Notes: a model not told the origin generated them from the letters alone. Numbered from the stretch's first letter, positions 16,921-64,000 are shown. The stretch is DNA of 64,000 nucleotides from an uncultured Ignavibacteriaceae bacterium (GCA_964581995.1 CAZOQB010000003.1:41989-105988); one strand, 5' to 3'. Numbers and translations: made by a program.

Positions 16921-18066
16921 TTATAATCCCAAATCGAAACTTATTGCCCAAACGTTATTCTTATAATTATAAAAATCGTCGTTCGATTCGTTTCTGATAT
17001 AATCATACATCAGACTAACGGCAAAACCGTTAAACCAACCGAATTCCTTTTCTAGAATAATTGATAATGAAGAGACATTATCCATACGTTGATTCGCCTT
17101 TATACTGTCGAGTAAATCGTAAGCGGGACGATTCGTATAATTTTTATTTCGATAAGCAAAAGATATTCTAGTCATCATTGACCAAGGCAGGATATGAGTT
17201 AGGGCAGCATCGAAGCTTGCCCCCTCGTAGCCATAATTATCGTCGAACAAATCATCGTCCGAAACAATATATCCCGAAGAAAGATACCTCGTTTCCTCTT
17301 GTAAATTACTCTGATAGCCCGCCGTAACGCTTATCCCTGTTTCATCAAATATTGATTGGGCGATTCGAGCGTTACCAGATAGTTGAATTACACTCGGCTT
17401 ACTATCATCTACAGTACTACTGTTCCTTCCCATACCAGAAGTAATAGCAGTTGTTTCCGGCGGAGCGTTAGTATAGGTCTTTACACCGAGGTTAGCTTCG
17501 AACGCTAACGTCGTTCTCGAAGGGAAAAAATTCATAATTTGTGCAAAGAAATAATTCTCTAAATTGTTTAAATCTGCTAACTCTTTGTAAGTCAAATATT
17601 TTATCCTATAACCTAACTTGCCGAATGTTCTTTCGGATAATTGATGTTTGACATTCAAGTAACCCACGTACTGACTATTGTCAAAATAGGCGAATTCTTC
17701 TCTTCCGACCATCGTATTATAATTTGCGCCTACGTTTAGTGCGGTTTCCGATTCTTCACCATAAAGTTTTGAATAGACAAACCCGGTTGAATGTGCGTGA
17801 GATGTTCTGGCAATGATGTTCTGATAATAATTGAACGACCCTATGTAAAATATTTGCAGGTTATAAGTATCATTATTAAAATCATAACCAGATTGAAGTG
17901 AAAATTGTGTTAACCGGTCGAATGTGTTAAGGTAGTTATTATTCACATTATCGTCGAAGGCATTATGAATGCCTGTATTCAACACAAACTGTGATTGAGC
18001 AACCGAGAAATTGATAAGCACAGATAATACTAATCCTACGCCGTAAAAGAAATTAATTTTTTTCAT
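16921..18066 (-). CDS. Outer-membrane beta-barrel protein, hypothetical
   Basis: Signal peptide, alternating aromatic beta-strand pattern, C-terminal F. Confidence 0.5.
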   Translation of the reverse strand: MKKINFFYGVGLVLSVLINFSVAQSQFVLNTGIHNAFDDNVNNNYLNTFDRLTQFSLQSGYDFNNDTYNLQIFYIGSFNYYQNIIARTSHAHSTGFVYSKLYGEESETALNVGANYNTMVGREEFAYFDNSQYVGYLNVKHQLSERTFGKLGYRIKYLTYKELADLNNLENYFFAQIMNFFPSRTTLAFEANLGVKTYTNAPPETTAITSGMGRNSSTVDDSKPSVIQLSGNARIAQSIFDETGISVTAGYQSNLQEETRYLSSGYIVSDDDLFDDNYGYEGASFDAALTHILPWSMMTRISFAYRNKNYTNRPAYDLLDSIKANQRMDNVSSLSIILEKEFGWFNGFAVSLMYDYIRNESNDDFYNYKNNVWAISFDLGL

Positions 18067-18074
18067 AACTCTTA

Positions 18075-18398
18075 TTACCTGTCTGCCGATCTTTTATGTC
18101 CACCTTGCTTGGTTTGCATGTCACCCTGCCGAAGTCGTAAACCGACTCCGCCTGAACGTCCATCGCATATTCCGTCGCCGTCTAAGTCAATAAATCTATC
18201 GCGCATACGTTTCTGTTTCCCTTCACCTTGTTGTTTTTCTAATCTATCGTCGACCCCGTTTGCATTTTCATCTAGAAAATTTTTATTCTTTTCAGTTTCT
18301 TTTACTTTTTTAATACTCGATGTATCTGAAGAAATCTGAGCAGAAGCGAAGGAGCCAAGCAGAACTAGCAGCATTAATATTTTTATAAAGTTTTTCAT
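18075..18398 (-). CDS. Small secreted protein with a DxDGDG calcium-binding-like motif
   Basis: Signal peptide. Motif FIDLDGDGICDG. Confidence 0.45.
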   Translation of the reverse strand: MKNFIKILMLLVLLGSFASAQISSDTSSIKKVKETEKNKNFLDENANGVDDRLEKQQGEGKQKRMRDRFIDLDGDGICDGRSGGVGLRLRQGDMQTKQGGHKRSADR

Positions 18399-18485
18399 AA
18401 TGATTCCATCAATTTATTAGTTAATATACTACAGATGCAGGACAAATAAAAATTCTTGCCCTGCATCTGAGCGGAGTTACAATAA

Positions 18486-18926
18486 TTATCTTTTACTACC
18501 TTTTCCTTTTCCGCTTTTAGCGCCTCGTTTGCCTTCTTTGTCACCTGACCAATTTGGTTTTCCATCTTGATCTGCAAACGACATGCTTTTTCCTTCTTGC
18601 ACAATCTCCCAAGGATAAAATTCATATCTACCTTGAACTTCTTTTACTTCACCTTTGATTTGCGCTTTAACGTTGTGCTTTAGTTGATACTTATTTCGTT
18701 CCCAATACCACTGAGGTCCCATATGAACACGGTATTCTTTTCCGTCTTCATCTTTAAATGTGGCGTAAGGATGTTTTACTTCGACTATAGTTCCTTTCAG
18801 AGTTTGGACTTTATCAACATCTCTTTTTTCGGAACCCTGCGTTGACCTGCCTTCGGTTTGAGCATATACGAAAAACGGCATTAAGAAAGCGGTCAAAATT
18901 GCTGCAAATAATATCACTGTTTTCAT
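18486..18926 (-). CDS. Secreted lysine-rich hypothetical protein
   Basis: Signal peptide. No family assigned. Confidence 0.4.
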   Translation of the reverse strand: MKTVILFAAILTAFLMPFFVYAQTEGRSTQGSEKRDVDKVQTLKGTIVEVKHPYATFKDEDGKEYRVHMGPQWYWERNKYQLKHNVKAQIKGEVKEVQGRYEFYPWEIVQEGKSMSFADQDGKPNWSGDKEGKRGAKSGKGKGSKR

Positions 18927-18974
18927 TTTGTCATCTCCTATTATTGATTTATCGTTTCCGAATTAATTAGTTAT

Positions 18975-19012
18975 ACTATGCTTATTAAAAACGGTAAAGC
19001 GGCGATGGAGTT
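18975..19012 (-). terminator. Rho-independent terminator
   Basis: ggcgatgg-agttttt-ccatcgcc, a perfect 8-bp stem followed on the minus strand by a T-run, right after the stop of the 19045..19575 gene. Confidence 0.6.
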
Positions 19013-19044
19013 TTTCCATCGCCGGCTTTTACCCGCTTTATTGA

Positions 19045-19575
19045 TTACTTGCCTTTGCGTGTTTGTCTAACGCTGCCTTTTGGGCCGGTGCCGTCGCAGT
19101 TACCTGTTCCTGTACCCGGTCCGAATCCTGAACCATCTTTTGGACCTACGCCTTTGTTGCCTGTGCCGTCGCCAGGACCAAATCCGCCGTTACCATTTTT
19201 TGCATTCTTACCGTTCATCATTTTACGACCTGTTCCATCTTGCGGTTTTACGTAGTCAGGGTCTTGTCCGTTTGGAATACCATCTCCATCGGAATCGATT
19301 GCATTGTCGTTTAGACCGTCGCCGTTAAGGTCGATAAAACCCTTTGTGCCTGTTCTGTTTTCTGGTTTTACGTAGTCAGGGTCTTTTCCGTTTGGAATAC
19401 CATCTCCGTCGGAATCGATTGCGTTATCGTTGATACCGTCGCCGTTAAGGTCGATGAAACCTTTTGTTCCTTTGCCACCTTTTGCGGTCTGGGCATTCGC
19501 ATCAGTCGATGCGAATAAGAATACTACTGCTACTAAAGCAAGTAGTGTTGTGAGTAATTTAATTTTGTTTATCAT
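19045..19575 (-). CDS. Secreted protein with tandem thrombospondin-type-3-like calcium-binding repeats
   Basis: Signal peptide. Two near-identical copies of TKGFIDLNGDG(I/L)NDNAIDSDGDGIPNG(K/Q)DPDYVKP. Gly-rich C-terminus. Confidence 0.6.
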   Translation of the reverse strand: MINKIKLLTTLLALVAVVFLFASTDANAQTAKGGKGTKGFIDLNGDGINDNAIDSDGDGIPNGKDPDYVKPENRTGTKGFIDLNGDGLNDNAIDSDGDGIPNGQDPDYVKPQDGTGRKMMNGKNAKNGNGGFGPGDGTGNKGVGPKDGSGFGPGTGTGNCDGTGPKGSVRQTRKGK

Positions 19576-19637
19576 TTTATTAATCCTTTATTTTATTGTT
19601 GTTGAATTAGTTAATTAGTTAATCTTTGATTAGTTTA

Positions 19638-19657
19638 GGCTCAATCATCGTGCCAGG
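19638..19657 (-). promoter_or_regulatory. Sigma-54-like promoter (-24/-12 type) for the secreted-protein operon
   Basis: Minus-strand reading is CCTGGCACGATGATTGAGCC, about 65 nt upstream of the 19575 start. It shares TGGCACG-N4-TTGAGCC with the divergent site at 19929. Confidence 0.45.
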
Positions 19658-19928
19658 AATTAATAACCTGAATAATCAATCATTTAAGCTCCAGTTAAGC
19701 ATTTTTTTAAAAAATAACTGAAATAGAACGGGTTTTACAGACAAGTAATCGGCAGAAGTGTCGAAACTATTCGGCAAGTTTGCCGAATAGTTTCCTGGTG
19801 TTTGAATTTTCCTCTTTTATATCGTGAAGTAACAATCCTGTTGTGGTATATATATGTTGATTTAAAATAGTAGTTATTTGAACCGTTTACACTAAACACG
19901 CATCTAATCATAAACCACAAACTATATA

Positions 19929-19947
19929 TTGGCACGTGTATTGAGCC
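19929..19947 (+). promoter_or_regulatory. Sigma-54-like promoter for the TonB-receptor/ABC operon
   Basis: TTGGCACGTGTATTGAGCC, about 90 nt upstream of the ATG at 20036. Matches the sigma-54 consensus except TTGA where TTGC is expected. Confidence 0.45.
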
Positions 19948-20035
19948 AATATTAAAGCTATTTGTATCTTTTCACGTTTATAGTCATCTAACAAATAACC
20001 ATCAATTACATTTAATATCGGATCGGATAATTTTC

Positions 20036-22309
20036 ATGCAAAAAATATTTCAACAAAACTTAATTTATATTTTATCTCTCATTATAATTGTTATGAGTGT
20101 TCACAGTGCATACTCGGAAGAGAAAGCCGGAAGTATTTCCGGTGAAGTGCGCGATGCGGTAACAAAACAACCGCTGCCGGCGGCAAATGTTATGCTTGTG
20201 GGAACTAACTCCGGTGCATCAACTAACGATAATGGATACTTTGTTATAAAAAATATTCCGATCGGTGTTTATCAATTAAAAGCTTCATATATAGGTTACA
20301 ACAATTTCATCAATGATGATATTCAAGTTGTATTAAACCGGAACACGAATATCCAGATTGAACTTGTACCGAGTCAGGTCGAAGTTGACGAGGTAGTAGT
20401 AACTGGAGGATATTTCCAGAAACCTACGGAAAGCACTGTTAGCTATCGAACGCTTTCGTCGCAAGAGATTCGACGTTCTCCCGGTTCGGCAGAAGATATA
20501 TTCCGGGTGATGCAATCGCTGCCGGGCGTTGCAACTGCTGGCGGTAAAAGCGCTCAGTTGATTGTTCGCGGTGGAAGTCCGGATGAAAATCTCACGCTGC
20601 TTGATAACATCGAAATATATAACCCAATACATTTTGCACGTACAGGTGAATCGATGGGAATCATAAGCATAATAAATCCTTCGTTGCTTAAAGAAGTAAA
20701 TTTTATGACGGGCGGTTTTCCGGCTAAGTATGGAGATAAAATGTCGTCTGTGTTCGATATGACTATGGTCGATGGTAATAAGGAATTACACAATATAGAT
20801 GTCAACGCAAATGTAGCTGGTTTCGGAGTGATGGTGGATGGACCGGTGATGGATAACGGCACAATGGTGTTCTCTGCGCGCCGTGGATTATTTGACCTGT
20901 TGACATCCGTTTTCAATCGACCTGCGGCTCCAAGTTATTATGATGCTGTAGGAAAATTTACTTACGATTTAGATGCTAATAACCGTTTGAGTCTTGTTGG
21001 CTTTTATTATCTCGATCAGATAGAGCGAGAAGGGACAGTGAGTATGAAAAGTTCTACCGATACCGCTAAGTATAATTACTTAACGCGCGATGATTATGGA
21101 ACTGCATTCGGTGTCAATTGGCGCTATCTCTTATCGCCGAAAGCTTATAGTTTAACTACTCTGTCATTTTCGGGTAACGGTTGGAATACTCTTCGAGGTT
21201 CCGAAACTGAAAGAGATTTAATTGGTGAAGATATTCTTGAGAACAGTTATACGTTGAAGAATGAAATCACTTATCAAATAAAATCTAATCTTGATATTAA
21301 AAGCGGAGTTCATGTTCGATTTATCGGATCGGAACATATAACATGGAAACCTGCCGATACTACTCGGCTTGGTCAAATAATTCCGGCATCGTCAATCTCT
21401 TATCTACCTGATTTAAGTAATAAAACATCCGTATTTTTGCAAAGCACATGGAGCCCATGGGTGCAGTTATCTTTAACTGCCGGCGGACGTTATGATTATT
21501 TCTCCTTCACAAAAGAAGGAACATTAAGCCCACGCTTATCTGCTTCTTATCATCTTACAGATAGAACATCTTTCAATATGGCATATGGCAAATATTACCA
21601 AACCCCTGCATCATACCAGATTGCCCTCGATCCGCTTAATCAACAACTTCGCAGCAGCAGTGCGACTCATTATATCTTCGGCATAGAACAAATAGTTCGT
21701 GATGATATAAAGGCAACTGTTGAGGTGTATCATAAAGATCTATCCGATGTTATTGTAGGAACCGATACGACCGACATTCTATATAATACCGGAAGCGGTT
21801 ACGCGAGAGGAATTGAATTATCTTTCCAGAAAAAATTCGTCGATGGGTTTGTTGGAACAGCTTCCTATTCATATTCAGTATCGAAACGACGTGATGCGGA
21901 TGAATTAACCGAATATTATTTCGAGTTCGATAGACCGCACATACTCAACCTGATTGCAGGTATGGAAATTGGCAAAGGTTGGCAGTTGGGTGCAAAGTTC
22001 CAATATGCTTCCGGCAATCCGTTTACGCCGGTTATAGGCGTAACGGAAAAGAGCGGTACTTATTATGTGGTTGACGGTGATTACAACTCAGCACGGCTTC
22101 CTGTTTATCACAAACTCGATGTCCGGCTCGATAAAAAATTCGTATTTGATTCCTGGACATTAACTGCGTATCTTGATTTGTGGAATCTTTATAATCAGCA
22201 GAATGTTCTTTCCTATTCATATAAAGTCGATCCATACGGCACCATTACCGAAACACCTCGATATGATTTCGGAATAACACCTATTATTGGGTTATCAGCA
22301 CAGTTTTAA
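20036..22309 (+). CDS. TonB-dependent outer-membrane receptor with an N-terminal carboxypeptidase-regulatory-like domain
   Basis: Signal peptide. CarbopepD_reg-like beta-sandwich (GEVRDAVTKQPLPAANV..GYFVIKNIPIGVY). Plug region. Long beta-barrel ending in F. Confidence 0.8.
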   Translation: MQKIFQQNLIYILSLIIIVMSVHSAYSEEKAGSISGEVRDAVTKQPLPAANVMLVGTNSGASTNDNGYFVIKNIPIGVYQLKASYIGYNNFINDDIQVVLNRNTNIQIELVPSQVEVDEVVVTGGYFQKPTESTVSYRTLSSQEIRRSPGSAEDIFRVMQSLPGVATAGGKSAQLIVRGGSPDENLTLLDNIEIYNPIHFARTGESMGIISIINPSLLKEVNFMTGGFPAKYGDKMSSVFDMTMVDGNKELHNIDVNANVAGFGVMVDGPVMDNGTMVFSARRGLFDLLTSVFNRPAAPSYYDAVGKFTYDLDANNRLSLVGFYYLDQIEREGTVSMKSSTDTAKYNYLTRDDYGTAFGVNWRYLLSPKAYSLTTLSFSGNGWNTLRGSETERDLIGEDILENSYTLKNEITYQIKSNLDIKSGVHVRFIGSEHITWKPADTTRLGQIIPASSISYLPDLSNKTSVFLQSTWSPWVQLSLTAGGRYDYFSFTKEGTLSPRLSASYHLTDRTSFNMAYGKYYQTPASYQIALDPLNQQLRSSSATHYIFGIEQIVRDDIKATVEVYHKDLSDVIVGTDTTDILYNTGSGYARGIELSFQKKFVDGFVGTASYSYSVSKRRDADELTEYYFEFDRPHILNLIAGMEIGKGWQLGAKFQYASGNPFTPVIGVTEKSGTYYVVDGDYNSARLPVYHKLDVRLDKKFVFDSWTLTAYLDLWNLYNQQNVLSYSYKVDPYGTITETPRYDFGITPIIGLSAQF

Positions 22310-22323
22310 GAAAGGGTAGAAAT

Positions 22324-23034
22324 ATGAGTTTAATTAAACTTGAGAATGTAAAAAAAATATATCAGACGGGTGAAATTCCTGTTACCGCTTTGAATGAAAT
22401 CTCATTCACTATCGAGCGACAAACTTTTGTCTCGTTCATAGGTCCTTCGGGCAGCGGTAAATCTACAATTCTGAATTTAGTCGGGTCGTTAGATAAACCT
22501 ACCAGCGGCAATGTTATTGTCGATAATGTAAATGTGGCAATGCTCGACCGTTCTGAAGCCGCGAAGTTTCGGGGTAGTACGATCGGTTTCGTATTTCAAA
22601 ACTTTAATTTGATTCCCGTTCTCTCGGTTTATGAAAATGTTGAATATCCACTTTTATTGATAAAATCGATTCCCGCTTCAGAAAGGCGTGAACGAATCGA
22701 TTCTCTCCTCGAAAAAGTAGGTATGATTGAATATAGAAATAAATATCCGAATCAAATATCGGGCGGACAGAAACAGCGCGTAGCAATTGCACGTGCATTA
22801 GTAACAAACCCAAAGATTGTTCTTGCCGATGAACCAACAGCTAATCTTGATCATAAAACTGCGTTTAAAGTAATTAATATCATGCATGAAATGCAAAAAT
22901 CATTGGGGACAACCTTTATATTCTCCACACACGATCCAAAAATCGTCGGTGAAGCTGAAATTATTTACACGCTCGAGGATGGTGCAATCGTGAATCAAGA
23001 AATTAAACAGAAAGATGGAGGCATCCATGATTAA
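22324..23034 (+). CDS. ABC transporter ATP-binding protein (LolD/MacB-type)
   Basis: Walker [10 protein letters not shown], signature [15 protein letters not shown], Walker [12 protein letters not shown]. Confidence 0.9.
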
Positions 23035-24259
23035 TCTTATTAAAATAGCCGTTCGCAATCTTTTCCGATATAAACGCCGAACAATATTAACTTCATCACT
23101 CATTGCCTTCGGGGTTGTGTTGGTGATAGTTTTTGGCGGCTTGGCTATATCGTTTAAGACGCAGATGATTGGGATGATTACAAACACCAACCTCGGAGAT
23201 TTGCAAATCCATAAAAAAGGATACGTTGAATCAATCGACAACCTTCCGCTTAATATCAGTCTTTCCGATTCCGAGTATGCGGATGTAGAGCGCGCATTGA
23301 ATGCTATGCCTGAAATCGCAGCTTTCAGTCCACGCATTAAGTTCGGAGCGATGATAAGCAATTACGTACAGACTTCGAACATACGGCTAACCGCAATTTA
23401 CCCGGATTTAGAAAGCAATACTTTACCCGACCTTATTAAAAGAATTAAAAGCGATATTAAGGATAAGAAAAATTATCTGAAGCAGGGTGAAATATTAGTG
23501 CCTGAAAATTTGATGAAAGGACTTTCACTTAAGGTCGGCGATGATATAGTTCTTATCGCAACAAATAAAGACGGATCGGTTAATGGAATTCCGGTTCGCA
23601 TTGCAGCGATGATGGAGAATGTTCTCGGACCATCGGGTAAAGACGGCTACATTCATATTGCCGATGCTATGACTTTATTGAGAATGGAAAAACCCGAAAT
23701 CATCGAAGTCGCTATCAAGCTCAAACAGTTCGATCAACTCGATAAAGTATATGAAAATTTGAAAAAAGCTCTCAGCCAACAGCCAACACAGAAAGAAGTT
23801 CACACGTGGGAACAGCTTTCTCCTTTTGCAAGCATAGCGCGGATTGTGGATTTGTTAATCCTTGTAGTGAAGTTTATATTAATATCAATTGTTTTAGTAA
23901 GTGTTTTAAACATCATGACTATGTCTGTGTACGAGCGTATCAGCGAAATTGGAACAATAGCCGCTATCGGTACGCGTCCGAGCCGGATTCTAACGATGTT
24001 TTTGGTAGAGGGTTTTACGATGGGCTTGTTGAGTAACATTATAGGAATATTAGTGGGTGTAGGAATTCTTTTGTTGATGAATACAACGAGCATTAACTTT
24101 ACATTCGGACAGATGAATGTTGCACTTGCCCCGGATATTCCCGCCCGCGAGATTTTATTAACAACATTAATAGTAATGCTTGTTTCAGTTTCTGCAAGCT
24201 TGCAACCGGCATATAAGGCATCCAGGATGGAACCGGTTGATGCCTTGGGACATGTATAA
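23015..24259 (+). CDS. ABC transporter permease, FtsX/MacB-like (LolE-like)
   Basis: N-terminal TM helix, a large periplasmic domain, and a C-terminal FtsX-type four-TM bundle. Confidence 0.8.
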   Translation: MEASMINLIKIAVRNLFRYKRRTILTSSLIAFGVVLVIVFGGLAISFKTQMIGMITNTNLGDLQIHKKGYVESIDNLPLNISLSDSEYADVERALNAMPEIAAFSPRIKFGAMISNYVQTSNIRLTAIYPDLESNTLPDLIKRIKSDIKDKKNYLKQGEILVPENLMKGLSLKVGDDIVLIATNKDGSVNGIPVRIAAMMENVLGPSGKDGYIHIADAMTLLRMEKPEIIEVAIKLKQFDQLDKVYENLKKALSQQPTQKEVHTWEQLSPFASIARIVDLLILVVKFILISIVLVSVLNIMTMSVYERISEIGTIAAIGTRPSRILTMFLVEGFTMGLLSNIIGILVGVGILLLMNTTSINFTFGQMNVALAPDIPAREILLTTLIVMLVSVSASLQPAYKASRMEPVDALGHV

Positions 24260-24271
24260 AAAGGATAAAAT

Positions 24272-25000
24272 ATGAAAACCATAACATCATTCATTCTAAT
24301 TTTTTTATTTAGTGTAATTCTTCAGGCACAAGATGCGAATGTTTTACTAAAAACAGTCGATGAAAATCTGATGCCTGATTCGTACGAAGCAATACGCAAA
24401 ATTATTAATGAAGAACCCAATGGTTCAAAGAAGGAATACACCTTTTACACTATAAAAAAAGGGAAAGATAAAATTGCGATGCTGTACATTACACCGGCGA
24501 GTGAGAAGGGACGCGCTACGCTGCGTTTGGGCGATAATATGTGGTTATACGTTCCCAATGTAAACAAACCAGTCCGTATCACAAGCTTGCAATCGGTTAT
24601 TGGCGGTGTGTTTAACAATGCCGATCTTATGCAGTTGGAGTATGCTGTCGAGTACAACGCTTCGTATGCTGAAGGAACTGAGAAAGAGTATATCCTCGAC
24701 TTGAAAGCAAAGAACAAAACTGTTGCTTACGACAGATTGAAGATGTGGATTAGTAAAGACAAAAAAAATCTCCTCAAAGTTGAGGCATACTCAGCATCCA
24801 ACATGTTGATTAAGACACTCGAATTTAAAGAGGACAAAAATTTTGGCGGCGGACTAATTCGTTCATCAGTTATTGAAACATCCAGCCCGCTCTATAAAGG
24901 TTATCGCTCGTTGATGGTGTACCAAAAAATCAAAAAACGACAGTTCCCTGATGAGGTGTTTACGCTGAGTTACATGGGTCGTTTAGGAGACCTCCGGTGA
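24272..25000 (+). CDS. Outer-membrane lipoprotein-sorting (LolA-like) protein
   Basis: Signal peptide. Sequence pattern typical of LolA-like proteins next to LolDE-like ABC transporters. Confidence 0.65.
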   Translation: MKTITSFILIFLFSVILQAQDANVLLKTVDENLMPDSYEAIRKIINEEPNGSKKEYTFYTIKKGKDKIAMLYITPASEKGRATLRLGDNMWLYVPNVNKPVRITSLQSVIGGVFNNADLMQLEYAVEYNASYAEGTEKEYILDLKAKNKTVAYDRLKMWISKDKKNLLKVEAYSASNMLIKTLEFKEDKNFGGGLIRSSVIETSSPLYKGYRSLMVYQKIKKRQFPDEVFTLSYMGRLGDLR

Positions 25001-26256
25001 AGTTCTGGTTCCTTTATTTTCTAATGGTTCCTCTGCTTGCGTTTTCACAAGAAGAATTCGATTCATCTACAAACGAGAAAAAATTAGAATGGAGCGGCAA
25101 TCTTGATGTAAAGTATTCTCTTTTACAGATGTCTCAGACTTCACCGGCATATCGACTTCAATTCTATAGTTCGAAGGATATATCGCGTTATCTATCGCAG
25201 TATCGAATCGAGCCGTATCTGAATGCCGAATATAAATCGGGGAGTTTAGGGTTTTTTATGAAAACCCACGCAACATATTTTAGCGATGATGAAGCGAGTG
25301 TCGATTTGTTCGAGGCATACGCAAGATACAATCCTTCGTTGAGCGCTACTATGCAACTTGGTAAAAGCGTGTTTAGCTGGGGAAAGGGATATGCCTTCAA
25401 TCCGGTAGGGTATGTAAATCCGCTGAAGGATCCTGAGAACCCGGAACTTGCTCAGGCGGGAATTCTTTCGGCAAATGTTGAGTATATAAAAAGTTTTTCA
25501 TCGGGTGCGCTTCAATCCTTTGCAGCCCAGGCGATAATAATCCCGGAAAGCAATCCTATAAACGGTCGTTTCGGTGAAGCAAAATACACAGATGTTGCGG
25601 CGAAGCTTTATTTTCTATTTTTGGATACCGATATTGATTTAATGATTTACCAGGGCAGCCGGAATCCTAAGCGATATGGGTTTGATGTTTCGAAGAACAT
25701 AATGGAAAATTTAGAATTCCACACCGAATTCGGTTTGACACGAAACGCTGACAGATATTTCATTGGCGATGGAGTTTTAAGCCGAGAGCATGGCGATATT
25801 TACAGTTATCTTTTCGGAATAAGATATCTTAACGAGTGGAATACGACCGTGATTGCAGAATACTATCGCAACGGGTTTGGTCTGAGTGAAACAGAATACG
25901 AATCGTATAATAAATATCTTTTGAACGGTCTTACTGTTGGAACACCTGATGCTATTCAACAAACAGTTGGCATTAGTCAGGCATATTTCAAGAGCAGCAC
26001 ATTAATGCGCGATTATCTCTATGTAAAAATAACTCAGCCGGAACCTTTTGAATTGCTTTATTTTACCCCATCAATTTACACTATTTACAATCTGCAAGAC
26101 AACAGTTTTTTGCTCTCAACAAACTTGACCTATAAACCTGAAACGAATCTTGAATTTATTGTTTGGTACACATCTATGTTTGGCAAAGAGGCGAGTGAAT
26201 TCGGATCACGTCAGGTCGAGCAAAAAATTGAGTTGTGGATGCGAGCGTATTTTTAA
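24997..26256 (+). CDS. Outer-membrane beta-barrel protein, hypothetical
   Basis: Signal peptide. Porin-like alternating pattern. Terminal YF. Confidence 0.5.
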   Translation: MKFWFLYFLMVPLLAFSQEEFDSSTNEKKLEWSGNLDVKYSLLQMSQTSPAYRLQFYSSKDISRYLSQYRIEPYLNAEYKSGSLGFFMKTHATYFSDDEASVDLFEAYARYNPSLSATMQLGKSVFSWGKGYAFNPVGYVNPLKDPENPELAQAGILSANVEYIKSFSSGALQSFAAQAIIIPESNPINGRFGEAKYTDVAAKLYFLFLDTDIDLMIYQGSRNPKRYGFDVSKNIMENLEFHTEFGLTRNADRYFIGDGVLSREHGDIYSYLFGIRYLNEWNTTVIAEYYRNGFGLSETEYESYNKYLLNGLTVGTPDAIQQTVGISQAYFKSSTLMRDYLYVKITQPEPFELLYFTPSIYTIYNLQDNSFLLSTNLTYKPETNLEFIVWYTSMFGKEASEFGSRQVEQKIELWMRAYF

Positions 26257-59522: not shown

Positions 59523-60014
59523 AAAGGTGATGTAATATTTTTATTTGACGACTGAATGATTACGACGTTTCTTTTCTTGATTACGAGATGAAATCTCGAC
59601 CCAAGTGTAAGTCAGTATTAAGATACCGGCGAGCAGAGATACCGTTGTTATTATTAATGTGTGCCACATGATTTTTTCTTTAATTATTTTTTTAAACTTG
59701 ATTGTCTTTAACCCAAGATTCGTGCCATGTACGAACCTTTGAATATCACTTAGAAATGAGCATTTAGATAAGCAAGTGCGAAGGATTAGTTCGCAGCGGA
59801 AATATTGAATGAGGGCTAACTTGTTAGATATAAGAAGTTGCAGGTGCGGAGTAGAGATACGCAGTTGGGAGGAAAGTATCAAGAGATGGTGATCAAATCG
59901 AAACATTTTTAACAATTAGGCACGAAGGAGACTGAGAGCTACTAATTATTATTACTGATGTTACGCAATGGTACCAAGATACACACTAAAAGGAGGTTGT
60001 CTAAAAAGTAAATA

Positions 60015-60115
60015 ATTCTTAGTGTATCTTAGTGAACTCGGTGACTTAGTGGTAAGAATCCTTTGATTATGATTCAAAAATAAAAGCATCAACACTAAGA
60101 CACTAAGAACACTTA
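60015..60115. repeat. Inverted array of CTTAGTG heptamers
   Basis: Three direct CTTAGTG copies (60019-60060) face three CACTAAG/CACTTAG copies (60088-60115), giving a ~30-bp imperfect inverted repeat with a ~30-nt spacer. Confidence 0.5.
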
Positions 60116-60223
60116 GGCACACAAAGATTTTTAGGACAGCCCCTTATTCGAATTCAGAAAAAAGCATGAATAAAGGATGTGCGAAACATGAGTTATTATC
60201 TATGTAGATTCACTCGAATAAAA

Positions 60224-61627
60224 TCAAGTCTCGTTTTCTTTCGATTTCAGTCCGTGCTCTTTCATCATATTTTGGAGTTGCCGGCGATCCATATCGAGAG
60301 ATTTTGCAGTTTGGGAAACATTCCAGCTATTATTCCGAAGCGCCTCGAGTATAAAAATATTTTCGAACTCATGGAGATGCTTTTCTTTCAGCTTCTTCTT
60401 CATCGTAAGATATTCTTGATACGATGATGGAATCGTTTCATCTATTTCATCGCGTGTAAGGTGAATGTCGGTGGGCAGATCATCGATTGTGATATATTCT
60501 CCCACTGTTGCAACCATCGATCTCACCACTGCATTTTCCAATTCACGAACATTGCCGCGCCATTGATATGCTTTTAAATAGATAAGTGCGGTCGGCTCGA
60601 ATCCTTTAATCTCTTTGCCAACGTTTTGCTTATGCTTCATTAAGAAATGTTGAGCGAGAAGCGGAATATCCTCCGCGCGTTCACGAAGCGGTGGAAGAGC
60701 AATATTGACAACGTTGAGCCGATAATATAAATCGCTGCGGAATCGCCCGGCTTCAACTTCAACCTTCAATTTACGATTCGTTGCCGCTACAATGCGGAGG
60801 TCTAACGAAATTTTCTCATTACCCCCCACACGCACAATCGACTGCTCTTCAATAGCGCGAAGAAGTTTTACCTGTAGTTCGATAGGTAACTCACCGATTT
60901 CATCAAGGAACAACGTTCCGCCGCTTGCCTGTTCAAATTTGCCGATACGCCTGCTGGTTGCGCCGGTAAATGCGCCTTTCTCGCTGCCGAAAAATTCGCT
61001 CTCCAATAACTCTCTTGGAATCGCGCCGCAATTTATTGCAACGAATGTTTTAGCCGCGCGTTGACTTGAAGAATGTATCGCCCGTGCGATTAATTCTTTT
61101 CCTGTTCCGGTTTCACCTTCAATAAGCACAGTGAAATTTGTTGAAGCAATTTGTTGAACCGTTTTTAAAACATCTTGCATCTTCGGACTTGCTGTTACGA
61201 TGTTGCTGAGATTTCCTAAAGAACGCAATTGGTTGCGCAGTTCTTCGTTCTCTTTAATCAACTTCACATGATTCATGGCGCGAGTAAGCACCAGATCAAG
61301 CTGATCAAGATCAATCGGTTTCGTCAAATAATCAAACGCTCCTTCCTTCATCATCGCAACCGCATTCTCGATTGTGCCGAACGCGGTCATAATAATAACC
61401 GGAATACTCCGCTCCATCTTTTTCACTTCTTTCATAACAGTATGTCCATCTACTTCCGGCATTTTCAGATCTGTGAGTACGACATCGATAGATTCACTTT
61501 GCAATATCGACAACGCTTCGCGACCGTCTTTTGCAAGAATAACATTATGGGCAGATTGAAGATTGATTTCTAAAACTTGTCTTGTCTTTTCTTCGTCATC
61601 AATTATTAAGAGATTGAGTTTGTTCAT
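60224..61627 (-). CDS. Sigma-54-dependent response regulator (NtrC family)
   Basis: Receiver domain (LLIIDDE..D). AAA+ sigma-54 activator domain with GAFTGA-like loop (GSEKGAFTGA) and ESELFGHEKGAFTGA-type motifs. C-terminal Fis-type HTH. Confidence 0.9.
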   Translation of the reverse strand: MNKLNLLIIDDEEKTRQVLEINLQSAHNVILAKDGREALSILQSESIDVVLTDLKMPEVDGHTVMKEVKKMERSIPVIIMTAFGTIENAVAMMKEGAFDYLTKPIDLDQLDLVLTRAMNHVKLIKENEELRNQLRSLGNLSNIVTASPKMQDVLKTVQQIASTNFTVLIEGETGTGKELIARAIHSSSQRAAKTFVAINCGAIPRELLESEFFGSEKGAFTGATSRRIGKFEQASGGTLFLDEIGELPIELQVKLLRAIEEQSIVRVGGNEKISLDLRIVAATNRKLKVEVEAGRFRSDLYYRLNVVNIALPPLRERAEDIPLLAQHFLMKHKQNVGKEIKGFEPTALIYLKAYQWRGNVRELENAVVRSMVATVGEYITIDDLPTDIHLTRDEIDETIPSSYQEYLTMKKKLKEKHLHEFENIFILEALRNNSWNVSQTAKSLDMDRRQLQNMMKEHGLKSKENET

Positions 61628-63711
61628 ACTTGCGATCCATCTATTGGAAGTTTTATACAAAATGTTGTACTGTTTTCGTTTGAAGTGAAAGATATTTCAC
61701 CGTTAATACTCTGTACCATCGAATGAACGATAGACAAACCTAAACCGGTGCCGGTTGATTTAGTCGTGAAAAAAGGATCAAAGATTTTCGACTGATTATC
61801 CATTGGAATGCCTGTGCCGGTATCTGAAACTGTGATGGTAACAGAATTATCTTCACTCATCGCTTTAAAACTTAATTCGCCGCCTTTTGACATTGCCTCG
61901 ATAGCATTCGTGCCTAAGTTTGCCAGCACCCGTTCGAGATGTTGTACCGATGTTATCAACTCCGGAATTTCTCCACTAAATTCTTTTTTGATTTTAACGT
62001 TGTTGCCCGAAGCGTTGATATTTATTGCCTGAATGGTTTTATCTATAAGCTGTTCAAGATTAGCTTTTTCCCAAACAGGTTTATGTGGTTTAGCATATTG
62101 TAAAAAAGTGTCGACATTTTTATTCAGCCGTTTGCTCTCTTCAACAATGAAGTTGCTCATCTTCTGAAGAAGATGTTCATCTTTGGGATTGCGTTGAATA
62201 GTTTGTGCCGACATTGAAATAATGCCGAGTGGATTCCGTAAATCGTGTGCGATACCAGCAGTTAGCCGACCGAGCGATGCAAGCCGTTCCAATTGAGCTG
62301 CTTTAATTTGCTCGTCCCGTATTTTTTCTAACAGCACATTTCGTTCTAATGTTATAGATATTTCATTTGCAAAGATAGTAAAAAATTCAACTTCATCAAT
62401 GGAATATGGTTTTCGCGTCGTCATCGGACCAATGAGCAGAAGTCCTGATATTGATTTTTTTGAATAGAGTCCTATAACGTATCCACCACGATAGTTTTTT
62501 AGAATTGTTTGTTCATCAGTCGTACAGGATTCCATAATTTCTTCAACTTCGCACGGTTTAAATTCTTTGCTGATTATTGTTGAAAGACATCCATCCATTG
62601 GTAATGTAATAGCTGAATTTGAAACGCTCCGGAACAAATATTCTGAATCATCCTTCAAGAAAACATCCGATATAGAAACAAAAATTGTTTCCCTAAGAAA
62701 TCGAACTACCGCTTCCGTCAATTCTCTCGCGTTCGTGTAATAAACCGCTTCGCGCGTGAAGCGTATGAAGTTACGGCGGTAACGGAATATATCTTGATAA
62801 AAAAGATGCTCGACCAGAGTTTGTACACGGGCAACTACTGGTCTGAAGATGAATGCTAAAAACACAATTAAAACAGCTTCAATCCAGAGTGACTCTATCG
62901 CAAACCTTGCTTCTACTAACGAGGCAATATTTTTAATTACAAAAATATAAAAACCGAACAATGTGCCTGTTACAATTGCATATGTCAATCCTTGTTTTCC
63001 GCGTTTACGAAAAATAAGAATTTTCCCGCTTAGCACAACATAAGATAAAAATGTGCTGATGAGTAAATAGGTGATTCGTGAGACAGAGATGTGTAGCTGT
63101 TCATACTCTTTTAACAAATCTAGTATAATAACTAAGACGCTAAAACCCAACATCGCTAAAAGGAAATAGACGATTTGTGAACGCACTTTCTTAGAGCGGG
63201 ATTGCTTTAGTTGCAGGATGAGATTCCGTATTCCCCATCCTAAATATAAAAAGAGAACGATGTAGATAATAACATTCAACTCATCGGTAAAAATATCCAC
63301 GACGTATATATAAATATTCTTTTCCAGAATTTTACGCAGTTCGAATGGGCGCGCGATTTGAAGACCGGCTATAATCGTAAATACAAAGGGGAGAACAAAA
63401 AAGAGCGGCCGGATAGATATCCGGTCTAATTTTGATTTAATACTTGTAGGGAACGAAAAAGAAAGTATGAGAAAAAAAGCTGAGGCGAATAACATCGCCG
63501 CTACGATAACAGCACCTCCGAGCGAAGCAAGCTCAACCGTGGAGCTGTTCACGACTATGACATCGGCAATATTCCACAAAGCAAAGCAAAAAACGAGGAG
63601 AGCAAACAACCGATTGGAGTGACCTTTCGGGTTGTCGAGAATAATTATAACAGCAAGCGATAAGTTTATCGCTAATGCAATGATTGCCGGAAGTGAATAA
63701 AAAGAAACCAT
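61624..63711 (-). CDS. Sensor histidine kinase with a multi-TM N-terminal sensor domain
   Basis: About ten TM helices, then HisKA (H-box IAHDLRNPL) and HATPase_c (GTGLGLSIV). Confidence 0.85.
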   Translation of the reverse strand: MVSFYSLPAIIALAINLSLAVIIILDNPKGHSNRLFALLVFCFALWNIADVIVVNSSTVELASLGGAVIVAAMLFASAFFLILSFSFPTSIKSKLDRISIRPLFFVLPFVFTIIAGLQIARPFELRKILEKNIYIYVVDIFTDELNVIIYIVLFLYLGWGIRNLILQLKQSRSKKVRSQIVYFLLAMLGFSVLVIILDLLKEYEQLHISVSRITYLLISTFLSYVVLSGKILIFRKRGKQGLTYAIVTGTLFGFYIFVIKNIASLVEARFAIESLWIEAVLIVFLAFIFRPVVARVQTLVEHLFYQDIFRYRRNFIRFTREAVYYTNARELTEAVVRFLRETIFVSISDVFLKDDSEYLFRSVSNSAITLPMDGCLSTIISKEFKPCEVEEIMESCTTDEQTILKNYRGGYVIGLYSKKSISGLLLIGPMTTRKPYSIDEVEFFTIFANEISITLERNVLLEKIRDEQIKAAQLERLASLGRLTAGIAHDLRNPLGIISMSAQTIQRNPKDEHLLQKMSNFIVEESKRLNKNVDTFLQYAKPHKPVWEKANLEQLIDKTIQAININASGNNVKIKKEFSGEIPELITSVQHLERVLANLGTNAIEAMSKGGELSFKAMSEDNSVTITVSDTGTGIPMDNQSKIFDPFFTTKSTGTGLGLSIVHSMVQSINGEISFTSNENSTTFCIKLPIDGSQV

Positions 63712-63717
63712 ATGATT

Positions 63718-64000
63718 TTATTGTTTCACCGAATACTTTTTTAAACCCAACTTATCTAATTTATATCGCAAGTTCCTCTCGGAAATTCCCAACAACAAAG
63801 CTGCTTTCGACTGGTTGCCATCTGTTTTTTGGAGAGTTTCGAAGATTAATTCTTTCTCCAATTCCTCAACTCGCTCCCCTAAATTTATAGAGTGAGTAGA
63901 TTTGGGCGATAACAGCTCGCTCGGTAAATTGCGCAAGTTTATAGGCAATTCATTTGAAGTAATAAGATCTCCACGCACAAGCACAACTGCGCGTTGGACG
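63718..64000 (-). CDS. C-terminal part of a sigma-54-dependent activator / Fis-type HTH protein (partial; continues past the window end)
   Basis: Ends ..KAALLLGISERNLRYKLDKLGL, a typical Fis-family HTH. No start codon inside the window. Confidence 0.6.
   Translation of the reverse strand, partial: VQRAVVLVRGDLITSNELPINLRNLPSELLSPKSTHSINLGERVEELEKELIFETLQKTDGNQSKAALLLGISERNLRYKLDKLGLKKYSVKQ

What the first reader, a model, noticed from the sequence alone, without database searches (positions are those of the whole stretch)
19638..19947. Divergent pair of near-identical TGGCACG-N4-TTGAGCC (sigma-54-like) promoters driving a secreted Ca-binding-repeat operon and a TonB-receptor/ABC/LolA-like operon
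**Seen in sequence**
- On the minus strand at 19638..19657: CCTGGCACGATGATTGAGCC, about 65 nt upstream of the 19575 start.
- On the plus strand at 19929..19947: TTGGCACGTGTATTGAGCC, about 90 nt upstream of the 20036 start.
- They share 15 of 18 positions and point in opposite directions towards the two operons.
- They match the sigma-54 -24/-12 consensus (TGGCACG-N4-TTGCW), except that the -12 dinucleotide is GA instead of the nearly invariant GC, identically in both.
- A sigma-54-dependent regulator and kinase are encoded at 60.2-63.7 kb.

**Interpretation**
- The shared deviation plus flank (TTGAGCC) suggests either a lineage-specific sigma-54 consensus or a composite site, e.g. for an enhancer-binding regulator.
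- The element links envelope-protein secretion with a TonB/ABC uptake-export module under one regulator.
Basis: seen in the sequence. Interest (0 to 1): 0.55.

Follow-up and report, generated by a model that had tools for sequence, protein, structure and literature searches.

The report
Divergent sigma-54 promoters sharing one enhancer
Two back-to-back sigma-54-type promoters in an uncultured Ignavibacteria genome share a central activator-binding enhancer and drive two cell-envelope operons; their odd -12 base is not a quirk of this site, because across this bacterial group the normally near-invariant C at -12 is not conserved.

Summary
TGGCACG-N4-TTGAGCC occurs exactly twice in the window, at 19655..19638 (-) and 19930..19947 (+). 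Each copy faces an operon.

I read them as real sigma-54 (-24/-12) promoters. Both are kept in close relatives. Two tandem 16-bp palindromes (TCGRCA-N4-TGYCGA, 22 bp apart, 19749-19786) lie between them. In four relatives these palindromes sit exactly 95.5 and 117.5 bp from both predicted start sites. The same palindrome-plus-promoter module recurs across Ignavibacteria next to a conserved kinase/NtrC-type activator pair, whose neighbouring genes are orthologues of the window's leftward operon.

The likely cognate activator is the next gene, cut by the window edge (63718-64000).

Only TGGCAC-N5-TTG is conserved. The "GCC" flank is not.

Across 1.49 Mb of Ignavibacteria DNA, 43 of 59 such sites lie outside ORFs. 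The base after TTG is A 23, T 8, G 8, C 4. Reference sets show C in 86% (Desulfovibrio) and 23 of 24 (E. coli) sites. Non-C -12 promoters are known elsewhere (E. coli pspA, pspG).

This is a known kind of module with a possibly lineage-wide relaxed -12 element. All evidence is computational.

The parts
19638..19655 (-). Leftward sigma-54-type promoter TGGCACGATGATTGAGCC. The conserved core is 19655..19642 (TGGCAC-N5-TTG); A at 19641 occupies the -12 position. Predicted start about 19629, giving a 5' leader of about 54 nt to the ATG at 19575.
   Evidence: Conserved in L004 and L005 (TTGA) and in L006 and L016 (TTGT), 67-86 nt from the orthologous start codon. Geometry.
19930..19947 (+). Rightward sigma-54-type promoter TGGCACGTGTATTGAGCC. 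The core is 19930..19943; A at 19944 is the -12 position. Predicted start about 19956, giving a 5' leader of about 80 nt to the ATG at 20036.
   Evidence: Conserved in L004, L005, L006, L016 and L011, all with TTGA.
19749..19764 (.). Enhancer (UAS) site 1: the palindrome TCGGCA-GAAG-TGTCGA.
   Evidence: Conserved in L004, L005, L006 and L016. The same motif lies upstream of sigma-54-type promoters in L010, L012, L069, L022 and L024.
19771..19786 (.). Enhancer (UAS) site 2: TCGGCA-AGTT-TGCCGA, the core of the perfect 15-nt-arm palindrome 19763-19794. Its centre is 22 bp (two helical turns) from site 1.
16921..19575 (-). Leftward target operon. It comprises a 176-aa secreted DxDGDG-repeat protein (19045-19575), a 146-aa secreted protein (18486-18926), a 107-aa secreted DxDGDG protein (18075-18398) and a 381-aa SlipAM-like outer-membrane protein (16921-18066).
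   Evidence: The 176-, 107- and 381-aa proteins are orthologues of the genes that flank the conserved kinase/activator pair in L012 and L163-L165, each behind its own sigma-54-type promoter.
20036..26256 (+). Rightward target operon. It comprises a TonB-dependent receptor (20036-22309), an ABC ATPase (22324-23034), an FtsX/MacB-LolC-like permease (23015-24259), a LolA-like protein (24272-25000) and a 419-aa protein without family hits (24997-26256).
   Evidence: The receptor also sits behind a sigma-54-type promoter plus tandem UAS in L012 and L069.
63718..64000 (-). C-terminal ~94 codons, including the HTH GNQSKAALLLGISERNLRYKL, of a 459-aa NtrC-family activator that continues beyond the window edge and is preceded by a 680-aa PAS kinase. 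This is the probable cognate activator of the two promoters.
   Evidence: 61% identity over the full length to the UAS-associated activator of L012; kinase 44% identical over the full length; L173 maps exactly onto the window.

Best explanation
The two motifs are sigma-54 (RpoN) -24/-12 promoters arranged back to back. They share one enhancer made of two tandem palindromic sites, TCGRCA-N4-TGYCGA, two helical turns apart.

Proposed mechanism (inferred):
- A two-component system supplies the activator: a PAS/Cache-type kinase plus an NtrC-family GAFTGA activator. The activator's gene starts at the right edge of the window.
- The phosphorylated activator binds the two sites and assembles into an ATPase ring.
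- By DNA looping it remodels the closed sigma-54 holoenzyme complex at either promoter.
- This co-induces a set of small secreted DxDGDG-repeat proteins with a SlipAM-like outer-membrane protein, and a TonB-dependent receptor with a MacB/LolC-type ABC exporter and a LolA-like protein.

The A at the -12 position is not a defect of these two sites. In Ignavibacteria the conserved promoter core is TGGCAC-N5-TTG, and the following base, C in most bacteria, is free, with A the commonest.

Shown: sequence, conservation, geometry, co-occurrence with the activator family, and orthology of the target genes.
Inferred: sigma-54 dependence, start sites, which activator binds, and the inducing signal.
For: (1) The motif occurs exactly twice, correctly oriented, 63 and 89 nt before the start codons.

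(2) Both sites are conserved in relatives with 86-92% receptor identity, while the surrounding spacer diverges and carries indels.

(3) Spacing and location are highly specific. In 1.49 Mb of Ignavibacteria DNA, TGGCA[CT]-N5-TTG gives 59 hits, 43 of them outside ORFs. Non-ORF DNA is only 14.6% of the total. Spacers N2-N4 and N6-N8 give 0-6 hits outside ORFs.

(4) The tandem UAS is conserved. In L004, L005, L006 and L016 its two centres lie 95.5 and 117.5 bp (94.5 and 116.5 on one side in L016) from both predicted starts. This gives a two-fold symmetric module with 212-213 bp between starts.

(5) The same UAS lies 60-120 bp upstream of a TGGCAC-N5-TTG site in L010, L012, L069, L022, L024 and L163-L165. 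It is always next to one conserved kinase/activator pair.

(6) The window's 176-, 107- and 381-aa proteins are orthologues of the genes flanking that pair. A 61%-identical orthologue of the activator with the same HTH lies at the window edge.

(7) GAFTGA activators are present. RpoN with all three domains is recorded for Ignavibacterium album and Melioribacter roseus (PMC12316311 supplement).

(8) There is no correctly oriented sigma-70-type promoter above chance, no Bacteroidota-type TAnnTTTG box and no Rfam element in the intergenic region.

(9) -12 base in Ignavibacteria: A 23, T 8, G 8, C 4 by site. By majority base across 23 sequence families: A 11, G 5, T 4, C 3.

(10) Reference values for C at -12: 99/115 curated Desulfovibrio sites, 23/32 in the like-for-like subset (Fisher p = 2e-5 on families), 23/24 in the block of named E. 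coli promoters, and 14/24 in my mixed-phylum control loci.

(11) Orthologous promoters drift C/T/A or G/C/A at this one position while TGGCAC and TTG stay fixed.
Against: - There are no transcription data. Start sites, RpoN dependence and activator binding are all inferred.
- rpoN was not found in any DNA I could reach for this genome.
- The canonical C at -12 is missing.
- The proposed activator gene lies about 44 kb from the promoters. In other Ignavibacteria it is adjacent to its targets.
- It is 61% identical to the reference member, whereas many orthologues are 72-75% identical.
- The window's spacers are 32 and 82 bp longer than in relatives. The 82-bp change is about 2 bp off an integral number of helical turns.
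- For the lineage claim, the 23 sequence families collapse to roughly 9-10 truly independent ancestral promoters, several in only two regulons.
- ORFs were called heuristically.
- The sites were selected by requiring TTG. The reference sets are partly comparative predictions and come from more GC-rich genomes.
Confidence: 0.78

Rival explanations
1. These are sigma-54 promoters, but the non-C -12 base is only a promoter-specific weak -12, as in E. coli pspA and pspG. The Ignavibacteria sigma-54 has an ordinary TTGC preference, and my sample is biased towards two envelope-stress regulons.
For: E. coli pspA and pspG carry TTGT. 16 of 115 curated Desulfovibrio sites, and 9 of 32 like-for-like sites, lack C. 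Many of my families belong to two regulons. Canonical TTGC does occur in Ignavibacteria at L021, L010, L168 and L170.
Against: Promoters in front of unrelated metabolic genes also lack C: a ferredoxin-type gene in L034, L045 and L076; a PyrK/GltD-like gene in L038; and sites in L035 and L065. Orthologous promoters drift freely at this position. The difference from the like-for-like reference is significant (p = 2e-5 on families, about 3e-4 on roughly 9 ancestral promoters by my own binomial estimate).
Confidence: 0.25
2. The activator encoded at 60224-61627, with its kinase at 61624-63711, is the regulator of the two promoters.
For: It is a GAFTGA sigma-54 activator on the same contig. It stays on the same contig as the receptor locus in relatives: P0244 and L005 share a 62.5-kb contig, and P0245 and L016 share a 170-kb contig.
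Against: It is only 41-43% identical to the UAS-associated family and has a different HTH. Its own conserved enhancer, CTGCG-N11-CGCAC twice, and its own promoter lie immediately downstream of it in the window and in L167-L172. That enhancer motif is absent from 19.6-19.9 kb, and TCGRCA-N4-TGYCGA is absent near 59.7-59.9 kb.
Confidence: 0.07
3. TGGCAC-N5-TTG(A) is not a promoter. It is the binding site of a conventional transcription factor, or of a different non-sigma-54 sigma factor, used in Ignavibacteria.
For: The canonical GC is missing. No transcription start data exist.
Against: The -24 half is a perfect TGGCAC. The spacing to TTG is strictly N5. The sites are single and asymmetric, always pointing at a start codon 27-94 nt away. 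They co-occur with GAFTGA activator genes and with activator-type tandem palindromes at enhancer distance. The same scan on mixed-phylum activator loci returns canonical TTGC[A/T] sigma-54 promoters.
Confidence: 0.05
4. The inverted pair (arms 19630-19655 and 19930-19955) is the terminal inverted repeat of a small mobile element. Alternatively, the central palindrome is a bidirectional terminator.
For: The arms are 26 nt long and 77% complementary, 274 nt apart. The palindrome 19763-19794 was flagged as terminator-like.
Against: The region is orthologous and syntenic in relatives with no empty site. The motif occurs as single copies in front of genes elsewhere. The palindrome lies between two head-to-head operons, where nothing needs terminating. 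Its T-run is weak. In relatives it is conserved as two half-site pairs, not as a hairpin.
Confidence: 0.02

Closest known systems
zraP / zraSR of E. coli and Salmonella: divergent sigma-54 promoters activated by the two-component activator ZraR (PMC4987338)
   Same: Both have two back-to-back sigma-54 promoters served by one NtrC-family response-regulator activator. A small periplasmic envelope-stress-type protein is a main target. In other Ignavibacteria (L012, L163-L165) the layout is the same as zraP-zraSR: a secreted protein gene divergent from the kinase/activator operon.
   Different: The activator is not a ZraR equivalog (419 bits against a cutoff of 760). The secreted proteins have no ZraP/Spy-type family hit and instead carry DxDGDG repeats. 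In the window both promoters drive target operons, and the regulator genes lie about 44 kb away. The enhancer sequence is different. The signal is unknown.
E. coli pspA and pspG sigma-54 promoters
   Same: These are experimentally established sigma-54 promoters with a perfect TGGCAC, N5, TTG and a non-C base at -12 (TTGT). The sequences appear in PMC12316311 S2. They also control envelope-stress genes.
   Different: In E. coli they are exceptions: 23 of the 24 named promoters in that block have C. In Ignavibacteria non-C appears to be the rule.
NtrC at glnAp2 and FhlA at hyc/hyp: tandem or shared enhancers for sigma-54 promoters (from my own knowledge; FhlA, hyc and hyp are listed in PMC4987338)
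   Same: Dyad-symmetric activator sites in tandem lie on the same DNA face, 80-200 bp upstream. One enhancer region serves divergent operons (hyc/hyp).
   Different: The site sequence differs (TCGRCA-N4-TGYCGA). The relatives show a strict two-fold symmetric geometry (95.5/117.5 bp both ways). The lineage is uncharacterised.
Sigma-54 regulon of Flavobacterium psychrophilum, with mapped start sites (PMC9723704)
   Same: It belongs to the same superphylum. The regulon is enriched in envelope-stress functions and exported proteins of unknown function.
   Different: The motif there is described as the typical -24/-12. So the relaxed -12 is not a general Bacteroidota trait.

Membership tests
sigma-54 (RpoN) -24/-12 promoter | GG of the -24 element in a TGGCAC context | tested here: met
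   Both sites have a perfect TGGCACG.
sigma-54 (RpoN) -24/-12 promoter | Fixed spacing between the -24 GG and the -12 TTG (TGGCAC-N5-TTG) | tested here: met
   Both sites have N5. Across the lineage only N5 is enriched outside ORFs: 43 hits against 0-6 for other spacers.
sigma-54 (RpoN) -24/-12 promoter | GC dinucleotide at -13/-12 | tested here: not met
   The G is present, but the C is replaced by A in both sites. C is frequent but not obligatory in reference sets: 99/115 Desulfovibrio sites and 23/24 E. coli promoters, with pspA and pspG carrying T. In Ignavibacteria C occurs in only 4 of 43 sites. Membership therefore rests on the other features and remains to be proven by transcription data.
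sigma-54 (RpoN) -24/-12 promoter | Intergenic, oriented towards a gene, with a short 5' leader | tested here: met
   63 and 89 nt from motif end to ATG. Related sites lie 27-94 nt from start codons.
sigma-54 (RpoN) -24/-12 promoter | An enhancer-binding AAA+ activator with the GAFTGA loop encoded in the genome, and an upstream activator site | tested here: met
   Two GAFTGA activators lie on this contig. The tandem palindromes lie 128-200 bp upstream of the predicted starts.
sigma-54 (RpoN) -24/-12 promoter | rpoN present in the same genome | not testable with these tools
   No RpoN box was found in the window or in any fetched locus. Full-length RpoN is recorded for Ignavibacterium album IALB_2998 and Melioribacter roseus MROS_1125 (PMC12316311 supplement).
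sigma-54 (RpoN) -24/-12 promoter | Transcription start about 12 nt downstream, dependent on RpoN and on ATP hydrolysis by the activator | not testable with these tools
   This needs 5'-end mapping and genetics or in vitro transcription.
NtrC-family enhancer (UAS) | Dyad-symmetric sites in tandem on one DNA face, conserved, and co-occurring with the activator gene | tested here: met
   Two 16-bp palindromes lie 22 bp apart. They are conserved in 4 relatives and recur beside one activator family in at least 8 other loci.
ZraSR/ZraP system | Activator is a ZraR equivalog and the target is a ZraP-family protein | tested here: not met
   ZraR model score is 419-421 bits against a cutoff of 760. The secreted proteins have no family hit. 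The system works like zraP-zraSR but is not a member.
Intrinsic terminator (for the palindrome 19763-19794) | A GC-rich hairpin followed by a U-run at the 3' end of a transcription unit | tested here: not met
   It lies between two divergent 5' ends. The tail is CTGGTGTTTG. The hairpin is not conserved as such in relatives.

The most novel reading that the evidence does not exclude
Sigma-54 of the Ignavibacteria no longer reads the C at -12. The lineage's promoter consensus is TGGCAC-N5-TTG-N (A-biased) instead of TGGCAC-N5-TTGC. This would imply a changed HTH/region I contact at the -12 fork junction, and possibly a different tightness of the closed-complex lock. It would be visible as substitutions in RpoN of this class and testable with TTGA against TTGC promoter variants.
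Probability: 0.4. Interest if true: 0.6.

Novelty: new variant of a known kind. Interest (0 to 1): 0.42.

Why it matters
- It defines a complete, previously undescribed sigma-54 circuit in a poorly studied, mostly uncultured class. The parts are the promoters, the enhancer sequence, the likely kinase/activator pair and a conserved envelope regulon. The regulon comprises DxDGDG secreted proteins, a SlipAM-like barrel, a TonB-dependent receptor, and a MacB/LolC-type exporter with a LolA-like protein.
- It shows that standard sigma-54 promoter matrices, which weight the -12 GC heavily, would under-call promoters in this lineage.
- If the relaxed -12 is real, it offers a natural variant for studying how the -12 fork-junction contact locks the closed complex.
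- The recent cross-phylum regulon survey did not analyse this class.

Tried and rejected
It did not extend the Ignavibacteria set, so I used it only as a positive control.
- rpoN: a search for the RpoN box in all six frames of every locus found nothing. I could therefore not compare the -12-reading HTH of Ignavibacteria RpoN with E. coli.
- Supplement S3 of PMC12316311 turned out to hold protein motifs, not the promoter matrix. I used the S2 sequences instead.
- Rfam found nothing at gathering score. It gave only a chance-level ALIL hit (20.8 bits against a gathering score of 50) over the palindrome.
- Sigma-70-type and Bacteroidota-type promoter boxes were at or below chance and wrongly oriented.
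- The strict UAS pattern missed L163-L165. An alignment showed a degenerate version there, TTCGAC-N6-GACG and GCGAC-N6-GACGA.
- The receptor promoter is not universal. Only about 11 of 76 receptor loci carry a sigma-54-type site, namely the window's clade and the L010/L012/L069 group.
- The mobile-element and terminator readings were rejected (see the rival explanations).
- Literature searches for 'sigma-54' together with 'Ignavibacterium' returned nothing.

Full report
OBSERVATION. The sequence is as described. The minus strand 19657..19638 reads CCTGGCACGATGATTGAGCC, and the plus strand 19929..19947 reads TTGGCACGTGTATTGAGCC. TGGCACG-N4-TTGAGCC matches exactly twice in the 64-kb window and nowhere else, even with two mismatches allowed. 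Shuffled sequence gives 0.16 such matches on average. The sites face outward towards the ATG at 19575 (63 nt away) and the ATG at 20036 (89 nt away).

The leftward genes encode four signal-peptide proteins of 176, 146, 107 and 381 aa. The last matches SlipAM, and the first and third carry DxDGDG repeats. The rightward genes encode a TonB-dependent receptor, an ABC ATPase, an FtsX/MacB-LolC-like permease, a LolA-like protein and a 419-aa protein. 'Ca-binding' is plausible from the repeats, but only sub-threshold TSP3_bac and Excalibur hits support it.

LINEAGE AND CONSERVATION. Homologues of the receptor place the window in the Ignavibacteria. I fetched 80 orthologous loci from named genomes. 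In the closest relatives (L004, L005, L006, L016 at 86-92% receptor identity, and L011 at 69%) the plus-strand site is retained at the same distance from the start codon. All of them read TGGCA[CT]-N5-TTGA. The minus-strand site is retained as TTGA in L004 and L005 and as TTGT in L006 and L016. The bases after TTGA vary (ACT, ACC, GGT, AGC).

THE ENHANCER. Midway between the promoters lies a perfect 15-nt-arm palindrome (19763-19794). Alignment with relatives shows that the conserved unit is two tandem 16-bp dyads, TCGRCA-N4-TGYCGA, at 19749-19764 and 19771-19786, 22 bp centre to centre. This motif occurs nowhere else in the window at zero mismatches.

In L004, L005, L006 and L016 the two dyad centres lie 95.5 and 117.5 bp from both predicted start sites (94.5 and 116.5 on one side in L016). 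Start-to-start distance is 212-213 bp, although the spacer sequence is poorly conserved. Such exact two-fold geometry argues for a spacing constraint of the looping type. The window has 32 extra bp on the left (about three turns) and 82 on the right.

THE REGULON AND THE ACTIVATOR. The same tandem dyads lie 60-120 bp upstream of TGGCAC-N5-TTG sites in L010, L012, L069, L022 and L024, and in degenerate form in L163-L165. In every case they sit beside one conserved pair: a PAS/Cache kinase and a GAFTGA NtrC-family activator. That activator family is widespread in Ignavibacteria, with many members 72-75% identical to the L012 protein.

The genes flanking it are orthologues of the window's leftward operon. 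The 176-aa protein matches the gene divergent from the kinase at 55-64% identity. The 107-aa protein matches the small gene behind a second sigma-54-type promoter. The SlipAM-like protein matches the gene after that. The receptor is also behind such a promoter plus tandem dyads in L012 and L069. More distant receptor orthologues lack it; about 11 of 76 loci carry a site.

It has its own conserved enhancer, CTGCG-N11-CGCAC, present twice at 59776-59796 and 59844-59864. It also has its own sigma-54-type promoter, TGGCACGAATCTTGG at 59727..59714. That promoter precedes a small membrane protein, a TetR regulator and efflux genes, in the window and in L167-L172. Neither enhancer type occurs at the other's location.

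Extending past the window's right edge (L173, identical sequence) shows a second kinase (680 aa) and activator (459 aa) immediately upstream. They are 44% and 61% identical over their full lengths to the L012 pair, and the activator has the same HTH. The last ~94 codons of this activator are window 63718-64000. This is the probable cognate activator, which is an inference.

THE -12 POSITION. In 1.49 Mb of Ignavibacteria DNA, TGGCA[CT]-N5-TTG occurs 59 times, and 43 of these lie outside ORFs although non-ORF DNA is 14.6% of the total. Other spacings give 0-6 sites outside ORFs. The base after TTG is A 23, T 8, G 8, C 4. By majority base across 23 sequence families it is A 11, G 5, T 4, C 3. Orthologous promoters vary at exactly this position (C/T/A in one family, G/G/C/C/A in another) while TGGCAC and TTG stay fixed.

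The reference sets show the following frequencies of C at -12:
- 99/115 curated Desulfovibrio sites, and 23/32 among those with TGGCA[CT]-N5-TTG.
- 23/24 in the block of named E. coli promoters, with pspA and pspG as TTGT exceptions.
- 14/24 in my mixed-phylum control loci, using the identical scan.

Fisher's test on families against the like-for-like set gives p = 2e-5.

Caveats are as follows. The families reduce to about 9-10 independent ancestral promoters. ORF calling was heuristic. All sites are predictions. The reference genomes are less AT-rich, although E. coli intergenic DNA is only about 41% GC (PMC11704786) and still keeps the C. In Flavobacterium, start-site mapping gave a 'typical' -24/-12 motif (PMC9723704), so the feature is not general to Bacteroidota.

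ALTERNATIVES. There is no Rfam family, no correctly oriented sigma-70-type promoter above chance and no Bacteroidota-type TAnnTTTG box. The mobile-element and terminator readings fail on synteny, position and conservation pattern.

COMPARISON AND VERDICT. The architecture is that of known enhancer-dependent divergent promoters. The closest is zraP/zraSR, where ZraR drives divergent sigma-54 promoters for a periplasmic envelope-stress protein and its own two-component system (PMC4987338). The activator is not a ZraR equivalog and the targets are unrelated to ZraP. Non-C -12 promoters are known individually (pspA, pspG).

Three things appear new:
- The circuit itself.
- Its enhancer sequence.
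- The indication that the whole class has lost the preference for C at -12.

I found no paper linking sigma-54 and Ignavibacteria. The 2025 cross-phylum survey lists their RpoN but did not analyse their promoters.

Confidence that these are sigma-54-dependent promoters sharing one enhancer is about 0.78. Confidence in a lineage-wide relaxed -12 is about 0.4-0.6.

Noticed in passing
window 59714-59864 (-): A third sigma-54-type promoter, TGGCACGAATCTTGG (59727..59714). Its own enhancer, CTGCG-N11-CGCAC, is present twice (59776-59796 and 59844-59864). It lies 45 nt upstream of a 42-aa membrane-protein ORF (ATG at 59668), followed by TetR, HlyD, ABC and OEP efflux genes. The module is conserved downstream of the orthologous activator in L167-L172, with -12 bases G, G, C, C, A. 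The listed 124-aa ORF 59541-59915 is probably spurious.
   Followed up: yes
window 59990-60145: A nested imperfect inverted repeat of about 156 nt, rich in CTTAGTG/CACTAAG units. The outer arms are 59990-60007 and 60128-60145, and the inner 38-nt arms are 60014-60051 and 60093-60130. It lies between the stop of the 60-kb activator gene and its downstream enhancer. It occurs once in the window, and a similar segment is visible in L167. Its function is unknown; it could be a terminator or insulator, or a small repeat element.
   Followed up: partly
window 19948-20035: The predicted 5' leader of the receptor operon is much better conserved among relatives than the spacer between enhancer and promoter, for example TTTGTATCTTTTCACGTTTATA and CATCTAACAAATAA. 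No Rfam family matches. It may carry a post-transcriptional control element.
   Followed up: partly
window 19656-19748 and 19795-19929: Relative to four close relatives, the window has 32 extra bp between the enhancer and the left promoter and 82 extra bp on the right. This breaks the exact 95.5/117.5-bp two-fold symmetry seen in the relatives.
   Followed up: partly
L012 9554-9784 and the orthologous L013 ORF about 50 nt downstream of the promoter at 5038: In the L012/L013/L069 group a conserved 76-aa ORF (ending ...DDYFSPSKWY) lies between the sigma-54-type promoter and the receptor gene. It is absent from the window's clade.
   Followed up: no
L163 4906-7727, L164 5424-7725, L165 4882-7719: In these Ignavibacteria the DxDGDG-protein gene behind the sigma-54-type promoter is followed by a multihaem cytochrome. 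In L163 and L165 a DUF2202 (ferritin-like) protein lies between them, and T9SS-tail and outer-membrane barrel proteins follow further downstream. This hints that the regulon may respond to a metal or redox cue.
   Followed up: no
L038 11649 and L039 13949: Two further sites read TTGAGCCGTAT after the -24 element, the same TTGAGCC as in the window. They lie in front of a PyrK/GltD-like gene. With only two cases this may be coincidence.
   Followed up: no
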